Shown: one piece after another, positions 8,863 through 64,000 of the stretch
How the letters are laid out: each line of letters begins with the position of its first letter
How positions within the stretch are numbered: the stretch's first letter is position 1
NCBI GenBank assembly: GCA_021513715.1
Contig: CP084167.1
Location: forward strand, 386,124-450,123
Source of the DNA: Candidatus Heimdallarchaeum endolithica
GTDB lineage: Archaea > Asgardarchaeota > Heimdallarchaeia > Heimdallarchaeales > Heimdallarchaeaceae
Reading direction: 5' to 3'
DNA: 64,000 bases
Position numbers and translations under genes: made by a program
Notes under the pieces: generated by a model
Seen by the model: only the letters and a program-made list of their open reading frames with translations
Told to the model about the DNA's origin: nothing
Databases searched by the model: none

Positions 8863-10182
8863 TTAGTTTCTTTTTCTTTTCCTTAACAATACAATTGGAA
8901 TAAGCAATGTAAGAGCTGAAATGTACAACAAGTCCATAGAACCTATTCTTCTAGTTTTATCTTGACCGCCTGTATAAATATCAGCACCAGCACTTGATCC
9001 TGTAGCAGTAGAAGATCCATAGTCTTGCCAATTACTTGATTCTGCTTCTTGAGAAGAACCATCTAAGGCTTGGAAAACTTGTATTGAATCTATTCCTCCT
9101 TCTCCTTCTCCTTCTAGTTCGTTTTCAAATCTGCTATCATAAATGATTTCAGCTGCAGGAATGTAACAACCATCAGAGGTTAGGAATTGCCAATGCATTG
9201 TTATTGTTACAGAATCACCAGGATAAAGTGTTATTCCTTCAACTCTAATATAACCCATACCCAAGTAAGTTCCATTAGAAATACTTCCTTTTGTTGTGGC
9301 TTTAGATTGTAATGAAAGCTCTGTTTGGTTATAAAATTGTGTGATAGTTATATGTGTTTCAGCATCTCCTACATTCGTGATTGAAAGAGTTATTTCTATT
9401 TCCCAAGGTCCATCTTCTGGAATAATGATATCTACATTTGTTTCAATATCTAAAACTGGTTGTGGGAAGGCAGGTCTTCTCTCATTGGTCCTTGGAACTA
9501 ATAGAGCCCAATCCATGTTAGATAAAACCCATTCATGTGTTTGTGCAGCTCCTTCAAATTCTTCTGTTATATTAGGCTCCCAGAAATTATAAACTGGAAG
9601 AGCTTCTTGTCCATAATCACTGTCAAATTCTACAACAGCATAAACAGGATGTATGCCTAAGAAAGTGTTTGCATCTACTTGTACTTCAAAATTGTACTGT
9701 GTTCCATTTTCAATTGTTCCTATTTCTTCATAATAGAACAAATCTTGGTCCTCTATTTGCCAATCATTACCCATTCTACCATGAAATAGATAAAGTTTAA
9801 CATTTTCAGCATTAATATTTCCAGTATTCTTAATATAACCAGTTATAGTCACTGGGTCTCCAACTTTGTAACTTGTTTGATTCAATTCTACGTGAGTATT
9901 AAGAACAGCTTCATCATCTGCAAGCTGGAAGTTTATTCCGTTACTAAAACCGTAATACTCAAATCCTTCAGGATCCTTGTATCTGAACCTAGCTCCTACT
10001 GATAACCAAGCATCAGCTTCTTCATCATAGTAACTGATAGGGCGACCATAGGCAAGTTGTCCTGCATCATCAGCAAAACCAAGTATCATTTGCATCATCT
10101 CTAAATAATTATGCTTTCTTGTAATTAGTTTTACTGCATCAGAACCTTCTATTTCTTCTCCTCTCATAACTCCAAATTCCAT
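8863..10182 (-). CDS. C-terminal fragment of a disrupted cell-surface protein (beta-sandwich/Ig-like domains, C-terminal TM anchor with LLRKRKRN tail)
   Basis: No signal peptide. The reading frame stays open upstream of the annotated Met to about 10286 (VDEHTEYFLEAVIPSLAPDETAHLSWALENVTSQS...). It ends in a TAA supplied by the terminal repeat of the inserted element. The C-terminal hydrophobic segment plus basic tail resembles an archaeal surface anchor. Confidence 0.55.
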   Translation of the reverse strand: MEFGVMRGEEIEGSDAVKLITRKHNYLEMMQMILGFADDAGQLAYGRPISYYDEEADAWLSVGARFRYKDPEGFEYYGFSNGINFQLADDEAVLNTHVELNQTSYKVGDPVTITGYIKNTGNINAENVKLYLFHGRMGNDWQIEDQDLFYYEEIGTIENGTQYNFEVQVDANTFLGIHPVYAVVEFDSDYGQEALPVYNFWEPNITEEFEGAAQTHEWVLSNMDWALLVPRTNERRPAFPQPVLDIETNVDIIIPEDGPWEIEITLSITNVGDAETHITITQFYNQTELSLQSKATTKGSISNGTYLGMGYIRVEGITLYPGDSVTITMHWQFLTSDGCYIPAAEIIYDSRFENELEGEGEGGIDSIQVFQALDGSSQEAESSNWQDYGSSTATGSSAGADIYTGGQDKTRRIGSMDLLYISALTLLIPIVLLRKRKRN

Positions 10183-10283
10183 ACTTTGAGAGGTGACATT
10201 TTCAAGAGCCCAACTTAAGTGAGCAGTTTCATCAGGAGCTAAACTTGGAATAACTGCTTCAAGGAAATACTCAGTATGTTCAT

Positions 10284-10631
10284 CAACTTAATTTTTGTAC
10301 AATATTTTTGTACGCCAATCTTGCTCTCGGAAAGATCTGTCTAGGAGGGAGATCTAAACACTCATTGAGCCAGAGGAGAAGGTTGAGCACTCCTCCACCG
10401 TGGAAACTGGATGAATAAATCCTCTCACACGGGAAAGTTAAGTCGTATTCAACTTTTCTTTGATTTCTTTCTTTATGCGCATGTTTTTTTTTATCTTGAC
10501 ACGCCGTGCCAGCTTAGAGAGTAAGTATTTTTCTTAACATCTATCTTTTTTTTTCACTCTTTACATTAATAATGTCTTTTCACTATTTAAACACCAATTT
10601 TTTAATTTGACAAAAATGTACAAAAAAGCTC
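10284..10631. mobile_element. MITE-like non-autonomous insertion (about 348 bp) with imperfect terminal inverted repeats (TTTTTGTACA..TTTTTGT) and a higher-GC structured core, flanked by a 5-bp direct repeat TTCAT
   Basis: Left end 10284 caacttaatttttgtacaatatttttgtac. The right end at 10631, reverse-complemented, reads gagcttttttgtacatttttgtcaaattaa. TTCAT occurs at 10279-10283 and 10632-10636. The core at 10300-10500 is much more GC-rich than the surroundings and contains short hairpins (gaggag..ctcctc; agatct x2). It contains no ORF. Each terminal repeat supplies a stop codon (TAA) that ends one of the flanking ORF fragments. Confidence 0.55.
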
Positions 10632-12266
10632 TTCATGACCTAAAGATCCTACTGTTCTTTCGATATATTCGAAATCTTGTAAATTAGGATCGAAAAGTGT
10701 TTGTTCCTCATAAAGTGTAGCTTGTATTGCTGCTACAGAATAAGCAATACCATTCCATAGCGCTTCTCCATAATCTGTTATTAGTCCATCCATATCTCCA
10801 TTCATAATGTATGTTGTTAAATCGATCTGACTCAAGTAATATCCTACAAGAAAGGTTAATATCGTATTTAGACCAGTTTCAGATTTTAGAGTAGCATTTA
10901 CAGTTATTGAACCATTTCCAGGAATTTCTAAACCAGTTGTATCAAATTCTTTATAATCATAATTAACTATTTGTTCTGTTGCACTTTCGTTCCAGAAAGA
11001 TAATTGACTATCAGTAATATTTCTGTACCATCCATCAAAAACCAAAACAGTTACATTAACATAAAAGTCTTCTACAAAACCTTCTAAAGAACCACCAAAG
11101 TTAATTAATAATGTTGCATTGGTTTCACTGTAAAATTCTTCGTCAATTGTTACATCATCTCTTAATTTGTAGATTACAGGACTGTTCTCAATCATATCAA
11201 TAAAGTCAGGTCCTAATGGATAACTTATTGTTATATTTTCTGCTGTTTCAGTTCCTGAATTAGTTACTTCATAATCCATCTGGAGAATTCCATTTTCATT
11301 TAATAATTGTTGATCATAATCCATATTTACGCTTACTCTTGGTGAAGAAGCAAGTTCAGCTTGGTTCATAGTGTAAACTACTTCAAAATTACCAGTTAAA
11401 TCACGAACTTTCCAAGGTACTTGCATTATCCAGTCCATTTTTCCTGAAATCTGTGGAGCAACGTTATTAGGTGTTGGCTCAATAGATAAAGCGTTAATCA
11501 AATATGGAAATCTGAATTTAAGAATACTATATTTTACAACACCTAACTTGTTATAGACTTCTAAATCTGAACCGAATAAGTTATTAGTTGAAAGTGTATA
11601 TTCACCATCTACTTCAACAATAGCGTCAGGGTCAACATAGTAAATACCCCTGAAGTAAGTTGAAGAACGAAAATCTTCTCCTATAAAAACTGCTTTAACT
11701 GGAGATTCAGAAACAGCAGTTGTCTCAATAGCTGCAGCAAAACCACTTGTAATGTCCCCCTTAATCTCATCTGTAAGTAATTCAATTTGTTCATTAGTTG
11801 AACCGCTTGAAAAAACATACAGATAGTTACTCTTTTCTGTTGAAGCTGCACCTGCCCAATGTAATTCTAAATTATAGTGATCATCAAAAAGTTGTGCAAT
11901 TCTCAAAGATTGATTAAGACTTCCATCTGTTCCTAAAGAACCATCGATTTCAAGTAAAAGTGTAGCATTATCAGGAGCTTTGAAAGGTCTTCGTAATAGG
12001 TAATCAGCATAAGCTGCTTGGTCGCTTACAATAAAAGCCCAGCTGAGAACATCATCAAATTCGCTAGCTAGAACTTTTAATGGACTTGAACCTCCAAAAA
12101 GATTCAACTTAACAAGAGCAGAACTTTCGATACCAGCTATTATTTTCATTTCTTCAACAAATAGCTCACCTTCTTCTCCTGTACTTCCAATTGCTGAAGA
12201 GGAATATACAAGAGCTTGAGTTGTTGAACTGCTCAAAACTAAAAACATTATTGGTAAAACTACCAA
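10602..12266 (-). CDS. N-terminal fragment of the same disrupted cell-surface protein (signal peptide present)
   Basis: 554 aa. N-terminal hydrophobic signal peptide (MVVLPIMFLVLSSSTTQA). The last eight residues (LFCTFLSN*) are encoded by the terminal repeat of the inserted element. Same strand and orientation as the 8863..10182 fragment. Confidence 0.55.
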   Translation of the reverse strand: MVVLPIMFLVLSSSTTQALVYSSSAIGSTGEEGELFVEEMKIIAGIESSALVKLNLFGGSSPLKVLASEFDDVLSWAFIVSDQAAYADYLLRRPFKAPDNATLLLEIDGSLGTDGSLNQSLRIAQLFDDHYNLELHWAGAASTEKSNYLYVFSSGSTNEQIELLTDEIKGDITSGFAAAIETTAVSESPVKAVFIGEDFRSSTYFRGIYYVDPDAIVEVDGEYTLSTNNLFGSDLEVYNKLGVVKYSILKFRFPYLINALSIEPTPNNVAPQISGKMDWIMQVPWKVRDLTGNFEVVYTMNQAELASSPRVSVNMDYDQQLLNENGILQMDYEVTNSGTETAENITISYPLGPDFIDMIENSPVIYKLRDDVTIDEEFYSETNATLLINFGGSLEGFVEDFYVNVTVLVFDGWYRNITDSQLSFWNESATEQIVNYDYKEFDTTGLEIPGNGSITVNATLKSETGLNTILTFLVGYYLSQIDLTTYIMNGDMDGLITDYGEALWNGIAYSVAAIQATLYEEQTLFDPNLQDFEYIERTVGSLGHEELFCTFLSN

Positions 12267-12522
12267 AAAAATGTTGTTGATTTTTTCATTTTTTATAGAT
12301 CCTCCAAAATTATCTAAGAACTTTAACTTCCTTATGTTTTAAGGATTATTTTAGTCCTAGCTAGAAAATTTATTATTCAAAAAAATTAGAACTAGTAGAG
12401 ACACTGCTTACAGGCTTGATTGCTTGAGATTTCAAATTGCCTTACTTTAACAAATGTTAAGAATTGAATTTATAGTCCCTTTTTCTTAAAGTTTTGTATA
12501 TTTTCATTTTTTTGAAGATAAA

Positions 12523-19224: not shown

Positions 19225-19974
19225 TTAACTGAAAAATTCATCATCATCTCTTTCTTGAATGTCTCCTGGTTTGATTACTGGCTCAACTTTGTAAACAACT
19301 TTTCCTTTCCAAAAATATTCTCCAGTCCGATAGATGGGATTTTTTCTCATATAGGCTAATGTACTTCTAGGGATACCAAACTTGTTTGAAATTGTACTCA
19401 TAGTAGCATTATCCTCGAACATTTGAAAGATCTCAATCAATTTTGGTCGCATTTCCTCATCAACAACAAGTTTTCCATTTTCATTTTTATAACCTAAAGG
19501 AGGTCTTGACATTATCTTCTGTTCTCCAATTCTTCTTTTAATTCCATATTTCCTCTTTTCTCTATATTTTTTGAGTTCCTCTTCACCTAAAATATCATAG
19601 ATCCTAGTAACAAGCTGTTCTTGAGACTCTTCTGTTGCTCTAATTTCAACACCAAAACTTCTTAAAATAACAGTAGCATAACCTAGCATATCAACTTGTC
19701 TTGAAATTCTATCTCTTGTTTGAACCCATACTTCTCTTATTGGGTCACCAGCATTGTTTTTGTTATATGTTCTAATAAATTCTAACATCTTTTTAAAACC
19801 TGGTCTCTCCTCAACATGACTATCTCCACTCACTTCTTCATCAATAAAGGTTTCAATGATATGCCTATACCCAACTGATTTTATTTTTTGCCTAATTACT
19901 TCTTCTTGGGTACCTAATCCTGATTCTTGATCTGCTGTACTTACTCTTAAGTAACAAATGACATTAATATGCAT
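19225..19974 (-). CDS. Small serine recombinase (resolvase/invertase family)
   Basis: N-terminal catalytic motif VICYLRVSTADQ (nucleophilic Ser). C-terminal HTH (TMSTISNKFGIPRSTLAYMRKN). 249 aa. Confidence 0.75.
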   Translation of the reverse strand: MHINVICYLRVSTADQESGLGTQEEVIRQKIKSVGYRHIIETFIDEEVSGDSHVEERPGFKKMLEFIRTYNKNNAGDPIREVWVQTRDRISRQVDMLGYATVILRSFGVEIRATEESQEQLVTRIYDILGEEELKKYREKRKYGIKRRIGEQKIMSRPPLGYKNENGKLVVDEEMRPKLIEIFQMFEDNATMSTISNKFGIPRSTLAYMRKNPIYRTGEYFWKGKVVYKVEPVIKPGDIQERDDDEFFS

Positions 19975-35600: not shown

Positions 35601-37644
35601 TTTTGATACTGATGACGATATTATTTCTGACGGTCAAGAAGTAAAGCTTTATGGCACAAATCCCAATAGCGCTGATACTGATGGGGATGGTTTAGGTGAT
35701 TATTCTGAAATTTTTACCTATGGAACAGATCCTAATAATAACGATACTGATGGGGATGGTATGTCAGATGGAGAAGAGATAGCAGAAGGTTTTGATCCGA
35801 TTAATCCTAAATCAAACCTGAAGAGAAAGAAGAGAATAAGAAATAGTCTTATCGGGGGTTCTGTTGTAATAGTTTTCTTTTCTTTGGTTTTCTGGGATGA
35901 TATAGAGAAAGCTCTAAAAAGACTTTCATTTTCTAAAAAGAAACAAAAGAAAAAAAGAAAAAGTGAAAATACAATTTGGAAAACTCAAGGTTTTTCTTCT
36001 AAAAAAGAATGGAAATCTGCAACGAAACTTGGCTTTGAAAATGGTAACGAATGGCGTGAATTTTCAAAATCAGGTTTTAGCAACAAACAAGAATGGATCG
36101 CTGCAAGGAATGTTGGTTTTACAACTAAATCAGAATATCAAAAAGCGAAAAAGTTTGGCTTTGAAAATGGTAACAAATGGCGTGAATTTTCAAAATCAGG
36201 TTTTAGCAACAAACAAGAATGGATCGCTGCAAGGAATGTTGGTTTTACAACTGAATCAGAATATTCAAAAGCATTAAAGAAAGGTTTCGATACTAAAGAG
36301 AAATGGGACTTTTTCCTAAAAAGTGGTTTCTCTTCTAAAAAAGAATTTGACGAAGCTTTTGCTCGTGGTTTTCCTACTAAAAAAGAATATGACAAGGCAA
36401 AATCCAAAGGTTTTACTGAAGGGGAACGCTGGAAGAAATTCTTACAGAGCGGATTTAATGATAAATATGAATGGGAAAAGGCTAATTCTCTAGGTTTCAC
36501 TACCAAAAAAGAATATGATGAAGCTGTAGCTAAAGGCTTTTCAACAAAGAAAGAGTATGATGAAGCTGTAGCTAAAGGCTTTTCAACAAAGAAAGAATAT
36601 GAAGAAGCTAAAGAATTAGATTTTGAAACAAAAGACGAACTTAGAAGATTCTTGAATAGTGGTTTTAATAAAAAGGATGAATGGTTGTTAGCTGAAATAG
36701 CAGGATTCCATGATAAAAAAGATTATGATGAAGCTAAGGCAAAAGGTTTTGATACAAAAAATGAATGGATTAATTTCTTAAAAAGTGGATTTAATACTAA
36801 AAAAGAATGGGAAGAAGCTATTTCTAGAGGTTTTTCAACAAAAGAAGAGTTTAAACTAGCTGAAAAGAGAGGATTTGCCACTAAACAAGAATTATTGGAT
36901 GCCGAATCCCGTGGATTTGGTACAAAAACAGAACTAGAAAAAGCTAAAGCTAAAGGATTTAATACAAAAGATGAGTGGGACGCATTTAAAGCGAGTGGAT
37001 TTAATACAAAGAAAGAATGGGAAGAAGCACAAAAATATAATATAAAAACAAAACAAGAATTGCAAAATATTGTTCCTTTGTTGGTTAAAACTATTAATGT
37101 TTTAAAAGAAAAAATAGATACATTGTTTAGTGATATGAAAAAAAATACGCTGAATATTCAAGAAACCGAAGAAAAAATAGAAAAAATGAGTGAATTGGAA
37201 AATAAAGTCGTTGAATTAAAAGAAAAAATCAAATATTACGAACAATTAAAAAATGTATTTCCGCAAATTGATAAAAAAGGACATGGAATTGAAAATCCAT
37301 TTTCGCCTTCGACAATAACAAAATTAGATATTATGCTAAGTAGATTAGATGATGAAAAAAAACAGTTATCTCTTTCACTAAGACGATTAAAGAAACTAGA
37401 AGCTATTATACAGACTTATGAACTAATTTCATTGTCTAAACTTACAAAATTGCTGGAATTTGAAGAAGAACTAGCACTAGAACAATGGATTCTATCTCTT
37501 GGATCACCAATAATTAAAATTAGAGGAGATAAAATTTATATTAACCTTGAATCTCGCGAATCTGGAGAAAAAATCGATGATGCAATAGATTTACTTTTAC
37601 GAAGTTTCCAAGAATATGAGCGTTCTGGCTTTGGAAAGAAGTAG
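32626..37644 (+). CDS. Giant single-pass transmembrane protein (1672 aa) with three repeat regions and a coiled coil
   Basis: Signal/TM segment at residues 9-30. Extracellular N-terminal eight-blade FG-GAP/PQQ-like calcium-binding beta-propeller. Extracellular thrombospondin-type-3-like calcium-binding repeat region. TM helix (IGGSVVIVFFSLVFW, about 35851-35900). Cytoplasmic array of 26 x 14-aa repeats. C-terminal coiled coil. TAG stop at 37642-37644. Confidence 0.8.
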   Translation: MKKNNFIHSLLLLIIIAGILFSSILLGLKFSYYCDNQTKQNLQTNNSLNYLNLNTENEYVLEETENNTLATLFRFAVQKPSTFWNFSTGGAVRSSPAIGDIDGDGKLEVVFGSDDYKLYALNAEYGQLLWSFSTGFKIHSSPALGDLNGDGKLDVVVASEDFVVYAINGENGSLIWSYTTGGTIYSSPALGDIDGDSNLEVVIGSLDGKIYAFNGEDGSFLWSYTTGGQAGHSSPALGDLNGDGKLEVIACSDDDKVYALFGENGSLYWSYSTGGNVRSSPALGDLNGDGKLEIIAASYDDYIYVIRNNGSLLYSFYCYSVYSSPALGDIDVDGRIEIVVGSRDDKIYAFNGEDGSLLWSYTTGNDVLSSPSLADINEDNKLDVIVGSYDGFLYGLYGSNGTKMWTDYVFNEIHSSPLVEDINNDGEIEVVFGGYSNIMYAIKLEVTSHRIYWSGLSADNSFTRTKNMIDTDADLDYLSEDYEEFLSTNPNSNDTDGDGLTDLDEIFIVGTNATNSDTDNDGINDNDDDNDEDGLTNGEEINIFFSDPNNNDTDGDGLTDGDEASTYNTNLFKEDTDGDGLTDWEEVTISNTDPNDSDTDNDGINDYDDDNDADNLTNGEEIDIYFSDPNNNDTDSDTLLDGDEVFTYNTNPSSNDTDSDTLLDGDEVFTYNTNPSSNDTDSDKLLDQYEIFTYSTDPNDPDSDDDGLSDGEEVFLSKTDPNDSDTDKDSLNDYDDDNDEDGLTNGEEIKNYGTDPNSSDTDNDGLTDPQEIFLYSTDPTNNDTDSDWLLDYDEIYTYNTDPLDPDTDDDGMPDGWEVTYNLDPLTANSDKDIDSDGLTNLQEYQHNTNPRDSDTDDDGIPDGWEVTYNLDPIIDDANNDTDSDGLSNLQEYQNNTNPNDSDTDDDGITDGEEILTYGTDPNKTDTDSDGLTDIKEVLTYYTDPNNNDTDGDNLRDGDEVYSYSTDPHNNDTDDDELLDGDEVHTYDTNPKDFDTDDDIISDGQEVKLYGTNPNSADTDGDGLGDYSEIFTYGTDPNNNDTDGDGMSDGEEIAEGFDPINPKSNLKRKKRIRNSLIGGSVVIVFFSLVFWDDIEKALKRLSFSKKKQKKKRKSENTIWKTQGFSSKKEWKSATKLGFENGNEWREFSKSGFSNKQEWIAARNVGFTTKSEYQKAKKFGFENGNKWREFSKSGFSNKQEWIAARNVGFTTESEYSKALKKGFDTKEKWDFFLKSGFSSKKEFDEAFARGFPTKKEYDKAKSKGFTEGERWKKFLQSGFNDKYEWEKANSLGFTTKKEYDEAVAKGFSTKKEYDEAVAKGFSTKKEYEEAKELDFETKDELRRFLNSGFNKKDEWLLAEIAGFHDKKDYDEAKAKGFDTKNEWINFLKSGFNTKKEWEEAISRGFSTKEEFKLAEKRGFATKQELLDAESRGFGTKTELEKAKAKGFNTKDEWDAFKASGFNTKKEWEEAQKYNIKTKQELQNIVPLLVKTINVLKEKIDTLFSDMKKNTLNIQETEEKIEKMSELENKVVELKEKIKYYEQLKNVFPQIDKKGHGIENPFSPSTITKLDIMLSRLDDEKKQLSLSLRRLKKLEAIIQTYELISLSKLTKLLEFEEELALEQWILSLGSPIIKIRGDKIYINLESRESGEKIDDAIDLLLRSFQEYERSGFGKK
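32860..33960 (+). repeat. Eight tandem units of about 47 aa (141 nt) encoding beta-propeller blades with DxNxDGxxE calcium-binding loops, FG-GAP/PQQ-like
   Basis: Repeated unit SSPALGDLNGDGKLEVV.GS.D.K.YA.NGE.GSLLWSY.TG, read directly from the translation. Confidence 0.7.
34098..35790 (+). repeat. More than 30 thrombospondin-type-3-like calcium-binding repeats (DTDGDGLTD..E / NPNDSDTDDDG); includes an exact 60-nt tandem duplication
   Basis: Motif DxDxDGxxDxxE recurs every 12-23 residues. The 34519-34578 block (encoding SDTLLDGDEVFTYNTNPSSNDTD) is repeated exactly at 34579-34638. Confidence 0.7.
35989..37080 (+). repeat. 26 perfect tandem copies of a 42-nt / 14-aa unit, consensus GF-x-TK-x-E-[WYF]-x-x-A-x-x-x, in the cytoplasmic tail of the giant protein
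   Basis: GFSSKKEWKSATKL / GFENGNEWREFSKS / GFSNKQEWIAARNV ... GFNTKKEWEEAQKY, with no indels. The 126-nt block 36028-36126 is repeated almost exactly at 36154-36252 (one nucleotide change). 36493-36534 and 36535-36576 are also near-identical. Shadow ORFs on both strands (35963..36277, 36138..36506) are artefacts of the repeat. Confidence 0.8.
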
Positions 37645-37676
37645 AATTAGAAAAAAATTTCCTTTTTTATTTTTTA

Positions 37677-38682
37677 AGCATGTCCAAAAATTAATTTTTT
37701 TTAATGTGGGGGTTTATGTCGGAATTATAACACATTTCCAGATCATAGACCCCCACAAAGTAAGAGAATTCATAATCATTAATGAACCTTTCCTTAAGAA
37801 ACTGGTGGATGAGAAAACGAGAGAAAGCAAGAAAGGAAGAAAAAGAATAGCAGAAGGATGGGTAATATTAGCAATAGGAATCATTGCTAGAATAGAAGGG
37901 ATAGCTTGGAGGAAGTTAGAGGAAAAGTTGTCTTTATGCGATTTTTTGATAGAAGAGGGGTGGATGAGGAAGATTCCTTCTAAATCTACTTTTCATGCAG
38001 TGTGGAGAGCGACAGAAAGTAAAATCTTAGAGCAGTGGATAATAGATTTAGGGGGAGAAATAGTGAGAAAAAAAGGGTTGAAAGCTATGGCAGTGGATAG
38101 TTCAGGGTTTAAAATTCGTCAGGCTTCTGTTTGGCGTTTTCTCAAATGGTCAAGAGGGACACTAAAGAAAACCTCCAAACTAAACTTTTCTGGAAGATAC
38201 ACCTTATAGTTGGTTTACCCTCTCGAGCTATAGTCTCTCTCGCTCATTCTGCTAGTATCACTCACGATAGTAAAGTCTTCGGTTTCTCTGGCAGAAACTT
38301 CCTTCTGCACTCTTGAGACCTTTCTTGCGATTCTATGGTGACTGTGCTTACTGGACAGAAAATATCGTCGGTCTTCTTAGCCAACATTCCTTTTTCCCTG
38401 TTATTCCCCCAAAAAGTAATGTTCGTTATCCCTCTCCTCCTCCCCTCGGACCAATAGTTCAAGCTCATCGTCTCTACCCTGGTCTCTATCGTCGTAATCA
38501 TCACCCCGAGTATCGTAGTAGTATTGAACACGTCTTTGGTCTTCTCAAACTCTCTCTTCCCCCCATCCTTGATCGCTTACCCTCCACCATCCTCTCTACC
38601 TTGTACAGTTCTCTCCTCTGTTACAACTACCTTTTACTCCTTCGGACCGTTTAGTATGTGAAAAAGAATTTTTGGACATGCT
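37677..38682. mobile_element. Insertion sequence (about 1006 bp) with perfect 16-bp terminal inverted repeats AGCATGTCCAAAAATT and a frameshifted IS4/IS5-type DDE transposase; candidate 7-bp target duplication TTTTTTA
   Basis: Inverted repeats at 37677-37692 and 38667-38682 (reverse complement identical). Flanks 37670-37676 and 38683-38689 are both ttttta-type (tttttta). Internal ORFs 37705..38209, 38131..38316 and 38313..38654 lie in three different frames. They carry AVDSSGF (first D), GDCAY (second D) and RSSIEHVFGLLK (the E of the DDE triad, the RxxxE...FGxLK motif). GC content is markedly higher than the host DNA. Confidence 0.65.
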
Positions 38683-39072
38683 TTTTTTATTATCAGAAGG
38701 TCATTGATTCAATTTTTTCTAGCGCAGATCAAAAAGAGAGATTTTTATTTTGTAATAATTCCTTTTATTGTTACAAATAACTGGAAAATCATTTATAACA
38801 ACATCAATCCAATTCAACAAGGAAATTGATCAAAAAGCACTATTATCTGAGTATTCTCATTCCAATTCACAAAGAGAAAAAATAGAAAAACTCAATAAAT
38901 TGTGGTTTATACTACTTCAAAAAACGACAATTGTATTTTTGAAGAAAAAAGTGAAATTCTTGTCCCATTTCATATGAATATGATTTATAAGCAATAAAAT
39001 ATACAATAAATCCTTATGAGACACGAAAAGTTAACCAGAAAAATTGAGAAAAAAATGAAAATTGTCTGTTCT

Positions 39073-62989: not shown

Positions 62990-64000
62990 TTTTCTTTGGA
63001 TATATAGTTTCTTATAAAATGTGGACATTGTATATACGCTTGATAGCCTGTTCACTCAATAGACCTGGGTTACACTTTTGGGCACTAGAGAAACGTAAGG
63101 GTGATTCATAAATCTTTCTCCAGGAGTAAGGAGGTTAAGAGACTGGTGAGGACGACTAAAATTGTAGTACGAGCGATAGTAAGAGAGGTCGGAGTTGCAG
63201 TATTTTAGTCCTAATCTTTCCATCTCACGGATGATGGTTGGGTTCCATGTAGTCTTTCTACTTTTCCGCATGTTTCGGGGTGAAAAACTCTAGCTCTGAT
63301 GTGTTTTATTCCTTCTGTTTGACACCAACGGGAGAAGGTACTTGTTCCTCCTCTAACGGAAGAGAAGAGTGCTCCATTGTCTGTGAGGATAGACTCGGGG
63401 TGACCATATTTTTCTATTGCTTCTTCTAGCAAGCTTATTATTTGCTCTTTTTTTGGCGCAAAAGGGTGAAGTTTAGCTCCTAGACAGAATCGTGAGTGAT
63501 CATCTATTAGAGTTATGAGGTGGAGATGTTGTCCTTGTTCTTCTACCCAGAATGGTCCTTTCACATCTATCTGCCAGAGTTCGTTAGGTTTTTCTCGCTC
63601 AAATCTCTTGTATCGAGGTCTCTTCCTCTTTTTCCTATTACTCCACAGAGGAAGACCAAGCTCTCCTATTACTTTAATTACTGTATTTCGCGATAATCCT
63701 CTTCCTTCTTTCTTCAACAGATAAGCTATCTTCTCCACATTCATTCCTTGTTTTATTCTTAACTCCCTTATCCTCTCTCTTAACTCCTCATCTACTTTCC
63801 TGTGTATAGTTTTTGGTCTGGAAGATCTATCCTTCCACCATTCTCCTTCAGGGTTCTTTCTGAACCTCTTTAACCACTTATACACAAACTTCCTACTCAC
63901 CATATAGTCGTGAGCTACCTTTTTTATCTTCTCTTTTCTCCTTCCAAAGCTTTTTTAACCACAATCTTTCTTAGTCTCTCTAGGTTACGTTCGGGTTTGT
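62990..64000. mobile_element. Degraded IS481-family insertion sequence (rve/DDE integrase with two or more frameshifts), truncated by the window end; higher GC than host
   Basis: Minus-strand ORFs 63211..63903 and 63056..63271 carry WQIDVKGPF (D), LIDDHSRF (D), HPETCGKVERLH (E) and YNFSRPHQSLNLLTP. The N-terminal HTH (NLERLRKIVVKKALEGEK / KIKKVAHDY-MVSRKFVYKWLKRF) is split by a further frameshift and runs past 64000. Element boundaries are not determinable. Confidence 0.55.

What the first reader, a model, noticed from the sequence alone, without database searches (positions are those of the whole stretch)
10279..10636. MITE-like element with GC-rich structured core splits a large surface-protein gene into two ORFs
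A 348-bp segment is bounded by imperfect inverted repeats (TTAATTTTTGTACAATATTTTTGTAC and its partner GCTTTTTTGTACATTTTTGTCA) and a 5-bp direct repeat TTCAT. The stop codons ending both flanking ORFs are supplied by the terminal repeats. The upstream fragment (10602..12266) keeps the signal peptide. The downstream fragment (8863..10182) keeps the C-terminal anchor, and its frame stays open back to the element. Excising the element plus one TTCAT copy rejoins ...GSLGHE|HTEYFLEAV... in frame, about 1020 aa. The core is far more GC-rich than the host (about 45% against 30%). It has palindromic AGATCT pairs and GAGGAG/CTCCTC hairpins and no ORF. This suggests a non-autonomous transposon or a mobile structured RNA element not previously catalogued for AT-rich archaea.
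Basis: seen in the sequence. Interest (0 to 1): 0.7.

Follow-up and report, generated by a model that had tools for sequence, protein, structure and literature searches.

The report
Small mobile element splitting a Heimdallarchaeal gene
A 348-bp non-coding mobile DNA element has recently jumped into a surface-protein gene of a Heimdallarchaeum (Asgard archaeon) at a specific short target sequence and broken the gene; it is a new family of a familiar kind of element, not an intron and not a demonstrably structured RNA.

Summary
Removing window 10279..10631 (353 nt: a 348-bp insert plus one TTCAT copy) rejoins the two minus-strand ORFs in frame. All 36 orthologues (~1030 aa) read straight through the junction. 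A 98.4%-identical genome carries the exact empty site.

A second copy (96.6% identical) lies at an unrelated locus in Ca. Heimdallarchaeum aukensis, again inside a secreted-protein gene whose near-identical orthologue has an empty site. Both targets share GTTCATGA, and the element has the same orientation in both. Short-read contigs break about 25-28 nt inside both ends, which implies further copies. A diverged partial relative conserves only about 140 nt at the GC-rich end.

So this is a non-autonomous, target-specific, MITE-like element. No partner enzyme was identified.

"Structured RNA" is not supported. There is no Rfam hit, folding z-scores are -0.4 to -0.8, and no predicted pair shows a compensatory change. 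An intron reading is unlikely: no catalytic core, no bulge-helix-bulge motif, and both host genes carry extra inactivating lesions.

Unexplained: the inverted repeats are short and subterminal, and the 3-nt right tip differs between copies (CTC vs TAA).

Verdict: new member of a known kind, modest interest.

The parts
10279..10283 (+). Left copy of the 5-nt flanking direct repeat TTCAT (the target pentanucleotide).
   Evidence: The empty site in L001 has a single TTCAT. The same TTCAT flanks the left end of the L018 copy.
10284..10631 (+). The 348-bp inserted non-coding element.
   Evidence: Absent from the 98.4%-identical L001. A 96.6%-identical copy lies at L018:1461-1806/1811.
10284..10291 (+). 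8-nt left terminal extension CAACTTAA, outside the inverted repeat. It contains the TAA that bounds the downstream reading frame.
   Evidence: It is invariant in the window, L018 and L135.
10292..10313 (+). Left subterminal inverted-repeat arm TTTTTGTACA (10292-10301) plus a second direct copy ATTTTTGTAC (10304-10313).
10314..10453 (+). GC-rich core (47% GC). The part next to the left end (to about 10425) is the only region conserved in the diverged relative L135.
10454..10608 (+). AT-rich segment (26% GC) with two T9 runs (10484-10492, 10546-10554). It is not conserved in L135. It contains the TAA (10604-10602, minus strand) that ends the upstream ORF.
10609..10626 (+). Right subterminal repeats: GACAAAAA (10609-10616) and the inverted-repeat arm TGTACAAAAA (10617-10626).
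10627..10631 (+). 5-nt right terminal extension AGCTC. Its last 3 nt (CTC) read TAA in the L018 copy, so this tip is hypervariable.
10632..10638 (+). Right copy of TTCAT, followed by GA. Together with the G at 10278 this gives the shared target GTTCATGA.
   Evidence: Empty sites in L001 and L045. The Logan contigs L042 and L043 start at 10609, so the 30-mer 10609-10638 is shared with another copy.
10632..12289 (-). N-terminal part of the disrupted CARDB-type surface-protein gene. The true ATG is at 12289-12287. A T7 run (12271-12265) is T8 in the intact allele, giving a -1 frameshift.
8863..10278 (-). C-terminal part of the same gene. The frame is open from the element's edge, and it ends in a hydrophobic segment plus RKRKRN.

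Best explanation
This is a miniature, non-coding, non-autonomous transposable element (MITE-like) of a family present in Heimdallarchaeaceae.

Shown: it integrated at the DNA level into one continuous ~1025-aa CARDB-type surface-protein gene. It landed at the target GTTCATGA (window + strand), and the insert is now flanked by TTCAT on both sides. The gene is split into a 554-aa and a 439-aa ORF and is inactivated.

Inferred: the element is mobilised in trans by a transposase or recombinase encoded elsewhere in the genome. That enzyme recognises the doubled TTTTTGTAC motifs at each end and about 60 highly conserved nucleotides at the GC-rich end. It selects the short asymmetric target in one orientation. 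The 5-nt flanking repeat is either a true target duplication or the crossover core of a site-specific reaction.
For: (1) One gene, precisely interrupted. All 36 orthologues (45-98% identity, ~1010-1040 aa) are colinear across the junction with no gap.

(2) Exact empty site. L001 (GCA_054387415.1) is 98.4% identical in DNA over 6.3 kb. It reads GGTCATGAACATACTG (gene-sense strand) where the window has the extra 353 nt.

(3) Second copy. It lies at an unrelated locus in Ca. H. aukensis CP084166.1 (L018), 96.6% identical over 350 nt, also inside a secreted-protein gene. The orthologue P0037 and its DNA (L045) have the empty site ATATTCATGAACGCT.

(4) Target and orientation. The two empty sites share 8 nt (GTTCATGA) and the element has the same orientation in both.

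(5) More copies implied. Illumina-based Logan contigs that are 100% identical to the window stop at 10308 and restart at 10609. The restart position is the same in two runs. With k=31 (my own knowledge of how Logan contigs are built, not shown by any tool output), this means the 30-mers at both ends, including TTCAT and TTCATGA, occur in at least one further context. That context is not the L018 variant.

(6) Subterminal inverted repeats are better than chance, p about 0.005-0.008.

(7) No coding capacity and no homologue. The only real protein hit is a spurious ORF called on a diverged element copy, L135.

(8) Both host genes carry additional inactivating lesions. The window gene has a T8->T7 frameshift, seen in two Illumina assemblies. 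The L018 host has two premature stops. The insertions therefore behave as knock-outs.
Against: No autonomous partner sharing the ends was found. The degenerate IS4/5-like and rve-type transposase remnants in the window have unrelated ends.

The inverted repeats are only 10 nt, subterminal, and asymmetrically placed (8 nt vs 5 nt from the ends). The extreme tips are not inverted copies of each other (CAAC... vs GAGC.../TTAC...).

The right tip differs at 3 of 3 nt between copies that are otherwise 97% identical. The L018 flanking repeat is imperfect (TTCAT/TCCAT).

A fixed 7-8-nt target in a fixed orientation is more typical of site-specific recombinases, IS110/IS1111 or IS200/IS605 elements than of classical TIR/DDE MITEs.

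Only two full copies and one partial relative were recovered, so copy number is unknown.
Confidence: 0.8

Rival explanations
1. It is a miniature derivative of an IS110/IS1111-type (DEDD recombinase) element. The conserved GC-rich module next to one end would encode a bridge or seek RNA that selects the GTTCATGA target. The element would move as a circle, and the 'duplication' would be the crossover core that belongs to the element.
For: Insertion is site- and orientation-specific at a 7-8-nt target. The inverted repeats are subterminal with asymmetric terminal extensions; IS1111 members have sTIRs of 11-13 bp with 7/3-bp extensions, and apparent duplications are part of the IS (PMC11187229). 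A roughly 140-nt GC-rich, compositionally exceptional module adjacent to one end is the only part conserved in a diverged relative. On the + strand it is followed by T9 runs, which would terminate an archaeal transcript (that oligo-T runs terminate archaeal transcription is my own knowledge).
Against: No segment of the element matches or complements the shared target beyond 5 nt, which is chance level. The best donor-like match is 9/11 and is expected about 0.2 times by chance (and my estimate). No compensatory change tracks the different right tip in L018. There is no covariation for any fold and no Rfam hit. The extension lengths (8/5) and repeat length (10) do not fit the IS1111 rule. No DEDD gene was seen in the window or loci.
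Confidence: 0.1
2. It is a non-autonomous IS200/IS605-type element (palindrome-associated transposable element, PATE). It would insert as single-stranded DNA just 3' of the pentanucleotide TTCAT without duplication, and its own right end would terminate in T(T/C)CAT. The GC-rich part might be a remnant of a TnpB guide RNA.
For: TTCAT lies immediately 5' of the left end in both copies, and T(T/C)CAT lies at the right end. This model needs no post-insertion mutation in L018. IS200/IS605 is the most widespread IS family in Asgard genomes (PMC13343696).
Against: There are no convincing subterminal hairpins; only a weak A/T hairpin exists at one end (my reading). The ends are inverted rather than direct copies. 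The GC-rich module sits at the wrong end for an omega RNA in the + orientation, and 35 nt from the boundary in the other orientation. There is no Rfam hit. The shared target extends beyond the pentanucleotide on both sides (G...GA).
Confidence: 0.05
3. It is a mobile intron (group I, group II or bulge-helix-bulge type) that is removed from the mRNA, so the surface protein is still made.
For: Both copies lie in the sense orientation of their host genes. Removal restores the frame exactly. The end repeats would bring the two junctions together in RNA.
Against: No group I or II model matches even at E<=10. No junction rotation gives exon-final U with intron-final G, or GUGYG...AY (my reading). 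No rotation forms a bulge-helix-bulge motif in either copy: H reaches 3/4 at best and the outer helix 0-2/5. Folding is not better than shuffles. Both host genes have further inactivating lesions. The two insertion sites are in different codon phases and in unrelated genes. Same orientation in two cases has p = 0.5.
Confidence: 0.02
4. It is an assembly artefact or a chance arrangement of repeats in AT-rich DNA.
For: Short A/T-rich repeats are common in a 30% GC genome, and the 5-nt repeat alone is weak evidence.
Against: Independent short-read assemblies from two runs read from unique flank into both ends of the insert. A second near-identical copy with its own empty site exists in another genome.
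Confidence: 0.01

Closest known systems
Archaeal and bacterial MITEs (for example Sulfolobus SM1-SM4, Neisseria Correia elements).
   Same: A few hundred bp long. No ORF. Inverted repeats near the ends. Short flanking direct repeat. More than one copy. Inserts into and disrupts genes. Presumably mobilised in trans.
   Different: The inverted repeats are short (10 nt), subterminal and asymmetrically placed. The tips are not inverted copies. The target is a fixed 7-8-nt asymmetric sequence used in one orientation. One tip is hypervariable. No parent IS has been identified. The host lineage (Heimdallarchaeaceae) has no described MITE in the literature I could search.
IS1111/IS110 family, including IS492 (DEDD recombinase with seek or bridge RNA). 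Source: PMC11187229. The IS492 details are from my own memory.
   Same: Subterminal inverted repeats with asymmetric terminal extensions. Strict target and orientation specificity. A short apparent duplication of the target core. A non-coding region next to an end that is the conserved part of the element.
   Different: No recombinase gene. No detectable complementarity between the non-coding module and the target. Repeat and extension lengths differ (10 nt and 8/5, against 11-13 nt and 7/3). No covariation for an RNA fold. The miniature, ORF-less form would itself be unusual for this family.
IS200/IS605-derived palindrome-associated elements (PATEs)
   Same: Small and non-coding. Inserts next to a fixed pentanucleotide. 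The family is abundant in Asgard archaea (PMC13343696).
   Different: It lacks strong subterminal hairpins. Its ends are inverted repeats. The target specificity extends on both sides of the insertion point.

Membership tests
MITE (miniature inverted-repeat transposable element) | Small (under about 600 bp) and without coding capacity | tested here: met
   348 bp. The longest internal ORFs are 35-37 aa. The six-frame peptide search found nothing. The exhaustive search with the 76-codon open frame found only a spurious ORF on another element copy.
MITE (miniature inverted-repeat transposable element) | Terminal inverted repeats | tested here: inconclusive
   There is a 10-nt exact inverted repeat (15 nt at 87%), p about 0.005-0.008. 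It is subterminal (8 and 5 nt from the ends), and the extreme tips are not inverted copies.
MITE (miniature inverted-repeat transposable element) | Target-site duplication shown against an empty site | tested here: met
   Window: TTCAT occurs once in L001 and twice around the insert. L018: TTCAT/TCCAT against a single TTCAT in L045. Whether it is a duplication or a shared crossover core cannot be told from sequence.
MITE (miniature inverted-repeat transposable element) | Multiple dispersed copies | tested here: met
   Two full copies at unrelated loci. Contig breaks imply at least one more copy with identical ends. One diverged partial relative, L135. Total copy number was not obtainable.
MITE (miniature inverted-repeat transposable element) | A full-length autonomous element with the same ends | tested here: inconclusive
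   None in the window or in the 135 fetched loci. The only transposase-like genes in the window have other ends.
IS110/IS1111-type element with guide (seek or bridge) RNA | Site- and orientation-specific insertion with an apparent short duplication | tested here: met
   Shared GTTCATGA target and same orientation in two independent insertions.
IS110/IS1111-type element with guide (seek or bridge) RNA | sTIR of 11-13 bp with terminal extensions of 7 and 3 bp (IS1111 group; PMC11187229) | tested here: not met
   Repeat of 10 nt (11/12 if extended), with extensions of 8 and 5 nt. The architecture is similar, but the lengths do not match.
IS110/IS1111-type element with guide (seek or bridge) RNA | Non-coding RNA with segments complementary to both strands of the target | tested here: not met
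   The longest matches to GTTCATGA or TCATGAAC inside the element are 5 nt, at chance level (my inspection).
IS110/IS1111-type element with guide (seek or bridge) RNA | DEDD recombinase encoded by the element or elsewhere in the genome | not testable with these tools
   None in the element.
IS200/IS605 non-autonomous element (PATE) | Subterminal hairpins at both ends, no inverted repeats, insertion 3' of a 4-5-nt target without duplication | tested here: not met
   Only a weak A/T hairpin at the right end and none at the left (sequence). The ends are inverted repeats. The fixed TTCAT 5' of the left end is compatible with this family.
Group I or group II self-splicing intron | Catalytic RNA core and canonical boundaries | tested here: not met
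   No Rfam match at gathering score or at E<=10. The boundaries are incompatible. MFE z-score is -0.4.
Archaeal bulge-helix-bulge intron | hBHBh' motif placing both splice sites in 3-nt bulges 4 bp apart | tested here: not met
   All junction rotations and both geometries were scored in both copies, and none forms the motif.
Structured non-coding RNA (any) | Structure more stable than composition predicts, or supported by covariation | tested here: not met
   z-scores are -0.4 to -0.8 on both strands. 0 compensatory pairs of 40 (minus strand) and 31 (plus strand), with several pairs broken in L135, including the AGATCT hairpin. Only three sequences were available, so power is low.

The most novel reading that the evidence does not exclude
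The roughly 140-nt GC-rich module next to the left end is the only part conserved between diverged family members, and on the + strand it is followed by oligo-T runs. It may be a small RNA gene carried by the element. That RNA could be a guide (bridge/seek-like) RNA that programmes a trans-acting recombinase to the GTTCATGA target. In that case this would be an ORF-less, RNA-guided mini-element in the archaeal lineage closest to eukaryotes.
Probability: 0.1. Interest if true: 0.7.

Novelty: new member of a known kind. Interest (0 to 1): 0.35.

Why it matters
It documents, with exact empty sites, a recently active non-autonomous element in Heimdallarchaeum. Mobile DNA in this lineage is of interest for models of eukaryogenesis, and MITEs there have not been described in the literature I could search.

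It explains two split "genes" as a single pseudogene. That matters for annotating surface proteins in these genomes.

Its strict short target and fixed orientation point to a site-specific mobilising enzyme worth identifying.

It does not change any general picture: small non-autonomous elements that disrupt genes are common in archaea.

Tried and rejected
(a) Rfam over the whole window and a permissive scan of the insert found nothing. The only hit was a chance C/D-box-like match (E 0.86) that starts at the junction and runs into the downstream flank.

(b) No tRNA or tmRNA in the window.

(c) No second copy inside the window by blastn with word size 7, pattern search, or nhmmer.

(d) A concatenated six-frame peptide query against 5.8 billion proteins, meant to catch spurious ORFs on other copies, returned nothing.

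(e) Metagenome scans: the core 18-mer gave 0 hits; the right-end 19-mer gave 83 hits, all chance.

(f) Six viral-contig scans gave either nothing or chance 18-22-mers.

(g) Plasmid and phage blastn found no match.

(h) Helitron/IS91-like reading: insertion between A and T and a 5'-TC start are possible in one rotation. I rejected it because there is no CTRR end and the ends are inverted repeats.

(i) Integron attC-like reading: rejected because the core-site consensus is not met.

(j) Transposase-remnant reading of the 76-codon open frame: no homologue except the L135 element copy. P0040 and P0042 are repeat-driven chance hits.

(k) The resolvase, IS4/5-like and rve-type genes in the window were examined as possible partners. 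Their ends are unrelated.

(l) The supplements of the two relevant papers contained no usable transposase or MITE tables.
Full report
**What is in the sequence.**
The gene lies on the minus strand. The upstream ORF (12266..10602) ends ...GSLGHEELFCTFLSN*. The downstream reading frame is open from 10287 (VDEHTEYFLEAV...) to the stop at 8863. Between them lies a 348-bp segment (10284-10631) flanked by TTCAT on both sides (10279-10283 and 10632-10636). Deleting 353 nt joins the two frames into a 1017-aa product.

Each end of the segment carries two copies of a TTTTTGTAC-type motif. The exact inverted repeat is 10 nt: TTTTTGTACA at 10292-10301 and TGTACAAAAA at 10617-10626. It lies 8 nt from the left end and 5 nt from the right end. 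A repeat this good occurs in 0.5-0.8% of equally spaced 40-nt pairs drawn from the window.

The core 10314-10453 is 47% GC in a 30% GC window, in the top 0.2% of 140-nt windows. The remainder of the insert is 26% GC with two T9 runs.

**It is one gene, interrupted recently.**
A search with the joined protein returned 36 proteins, the named ones from Heimdallarchaeaceae or Heimdallarchaeota MAGs. They are about 1010-1040 aa long, and every one is colinear across the junction. The closest, P0003, lies on contig L001 (GCA_054387415.1). L001 is 98.4% identical to the window in DNA over 6.3 kb. At the junction it reads GGTCATGAACATACTG on the gene-sense strand: one ATGAA and no insert. A 90%-identical orthologue on L002 is also uninterrupted.

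The window is 100% identical to short-read (Logan) contigs from SRR15988961, SRR15988960 and SRR15988956. The SRR15988961 and SRR15988960 contigs read from unique flank into the element's ends, so the insertion is not an assembly artefact of one reference.

**It is a repeated, mobile element.**
An 18-mer from the core found one Heimdallarchaeal locus among 185,579 species genomes: L018 in the complete Ca. Heimdallarchaeum aukensis PM71 chromosome. L018 carries a copy 96.6% identical over 350 nt, with completely different flanks. That copy also lies inside a minus-strand gene for a secreted protein.

The orthologue of that gene (P0037, 95% identical) reads ...DAIFMNASDNRVED... without interruption. 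Its DNA (L045) has the empty site ATATTCATGAACGCT.

In the window's own samples, the short-read contigs stop at 10308 and restart at 10609. The restart is at the same position in two runs. For a k=31 assembly graph (my own knowledge of how Logan contigs are built), this means the 30-mers 10279-10308 and 10609-10638 occur in at least one other context. That context cannot be the L018 variant, which differs at 10307 and at the right tip. So at least one more copy exists with identical ends, flanked by TTCAT and TTCATGA.

An exhaustive protein search with the 76-codon open frame of the core found a spurious ORF (P0041) on a 563-nt ENA metagenome contig, L135. L135 carries a diverged relative. About 140 nt at the GC-rich end align at roughly 85% identity, and the last ~60 nt are nearly invariant. 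The rest is unalignable and there is no partner inverted repeat on the contig.

No copy was found in the JGI metagenome, viral, plasmid or phage collections. None was found elsewhere in the window or in the fetched loci.

**Target and junctions.**
On the window + strand, the two filled and empty sites are:

| Locus | State | Sequence |
|---|---|---|
| Window | filled | AGTATG-TTCAT-[CAACTT...AAAAAAGCTC]-TTCAT-GACC |
| L001 | empty | AGTATG-TTCAT-GACC |
| L018 | filled | GAAGCG-TTCAT-[CAACTT...AAAAAAGTAA]-TCCAT-GAAT |
| L045 | empty | GAAGCG-TTCAT-GAAT |

The two targets share GTTCATGA, and the element sits in the same orientation relative to this asymmetric sequence. The insertion points fall in different codon phases (GGT CAT GAA CAT against TTC ATG AAC), so the specificity acts on DNA and not on the protein-coding frame.

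Two features do not fit a textbook TIR/DDE MITE.
- The last three nucleotides of the right end are CTC in the window and TAA in L018. The other 345 nt differ at only 10 positions (9 of them transitions) plus a 2-nt T-run indel.
- The L018 flanking repeat is imperfect.

Sequence alone cannot tell whether TTCAT is a true duplication or a crossover core that belongs to the element.

**Is the core a structured RNA?**
Rfam gave nothing at gathering score over the whole window and nothing in the insert at E<=10. Minimum free energies of the whole insert, the core and the AT-rich half are within one standard deviation of dinucleotide shuffles on both strands (z = +0.7 to -0.8).

With the diverged L135 sequence, RNAalifold finds 0 compensatory pairs among 40 predicted pairs on the minus strand and 31 on the plus strand. 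L135 breaks two pairs of the AGATCT/AGATCT hairpin and two at the base of the GAGGAG/CTCCTC hairpin.

The GC-richness is real and unusual. The module next to the left end is the conserved part of the family. With three sequences, however, nothing shows that it functions as an RNA. It could equally be an extended protein-binding end.

**Is it an intron?**
No.
- No group I or II core is detectable.
- No allowed junction rotation gives canonical boundaries.
- None forms a bulge-helix-bulge motif in either copy.
- Both host genes carry additional lesions. In the window, the real start MKKSTTFF... (ATG 12289-12287, behind GGAGGA) is out of frame because a T8 run is T7. The T7 state is present in two Illumina assemblies, whereas L001 has T8 and an intact MKKSTTFFLVVLP... 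start.
- In L018, two glutamine codons of the host gene have become stop codons relative to L045.

These are decaying pseudogenes, as expected after a knock-out insertion and not expected for a spliced intron.

**Mechanism.**
What is shown:
- DNA-level insertion at a specific short target, with a 5-nt flanking repeat.
- At least two to three copies.
- No coding capacity.
- Disruption of the host gene.

What is inferred:
- Mobilisation in trans by an enzyme that binds the doubled end motifs and the conserved ~60-nt end.

Which enzyme is unknown. The window contains a serine recombinase gene (19225-19974, minus strand). It also holds a frameshifted IS4/5-like element with its own 23-bp inverted repeats (37676-38683) and a frameshifted rve-type transposase (63056-63903). 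None of them shares the element's ends.

The combination of subterminal repeats, asymmetric extensions, strict target and orientation, and a conserved non-coding module resembles IS1111/IS110 elements (PMC11187229). But the lengths do not match that family's rule. No complementarity to the target beyond 5 nt is present, and the differing right tip in L018 is not matched by any compensating change in the core. An IS200/IS605-type reading explains the constant TTCAT 5' of the left end, but it lacks the required hairpins.

**Comparison and novelty.**
The element works like a MITE and meets most MITE criteria. The unmet or untested ones are strictly terminal repeats and an identified parent IS.

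The paper describing the Heimdallarchaeum genomes reports abundant non-tandem repeats and 11 transposase/integrase families, but no MITE (PMC8813620). No paper in the searchable library combines MITE and Asgard.

I therefore rate it a new member of a known kind. The unresolved and somewhat unusual insertion chemistry leaves a small chance of something more interesting: an ORF-less, RNA-guided mini-element.

Noticed in passing
window 12265-12289 (minus strand): The disrupted gene also has a -1 frameshift near its start. ATG (12289-12287) MKKSTTFF runs into a T7 homopolymer (12271-12265) that is T8 in the 98%-identical L001, whose protein starts MKKSTTFFLVVLP. The T7 state is present in two independent Illumina assemblies, so it is a real second lesion (or a phase-variable tract).
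   Followed up: yes
L018:306-2180 (minus strand): The H. aukensis gene that carries the second copy also has two glutamine codons changed to stop codons relative to L045 (one CAA->TGA, which needs two substitutions). It is an older pseudogene.
   Followed up: yes
window 37616-38683 (+): A degenerate IS4/IS5-like insertion sequence of about 1 kb, bounded by 23-nt inverted repeats AAGCATGTCCAAAAAT... (37676-37698 / 38661-38683). Its transposase frame is broken into at least three pieces, with a weak DDE_Tnp_1 hit (E 0.009, below Pfam's cut-off). It is GC-rich (up to 49%) and sits at the 3' end of a 1672-aa ORF.
   Followed up: partly
window 63056-63903 (minus strand): A frameshifted rve/HTH_32 (IS481/IS3-like) transposase gene, split into 230-aa and 71-aa pieces. 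It is GC-rich and runs towards the window end.
   Followed up: partly
window 19225-19974 (minus strand): A 249-aa small serine recombinase (N-terminal Resolvase domain) next to a methyltransferase gene. It is not IS607-like in domain order. No link to the element was found.
   Followed up: partly
window 10200-10289 (minus strand): A weak C/D-box snoRNA-like Rfam match (TtnuCD22, 19 bits, E 0.86). Its C box UGAUGA is created at the element/exon junction (GUUGAUGAAC). Judged to be chance.
   Followed up: partly
L135:88-552: The ENA gene call P0041 on this 563-nt contig reads through TGA codons as tryptophan (the locus does not translate to the protein with table 11). The ORF is an artefact of the genetic code used by the caller. 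It happened to preserve a diverged copy of the element's end in the protein database.
   Followed up: partly
L129-L134 (IMG/VR contigs): Six viral contigs, in three related pairs, contain the exact 18-mer CACGGTGGAGGAGTGCTC from the core, and four extend to 21/22 nt. There is no further similarity and no Rfam family there. Consistent with chance for the size of the collection.
   Followed up: yes
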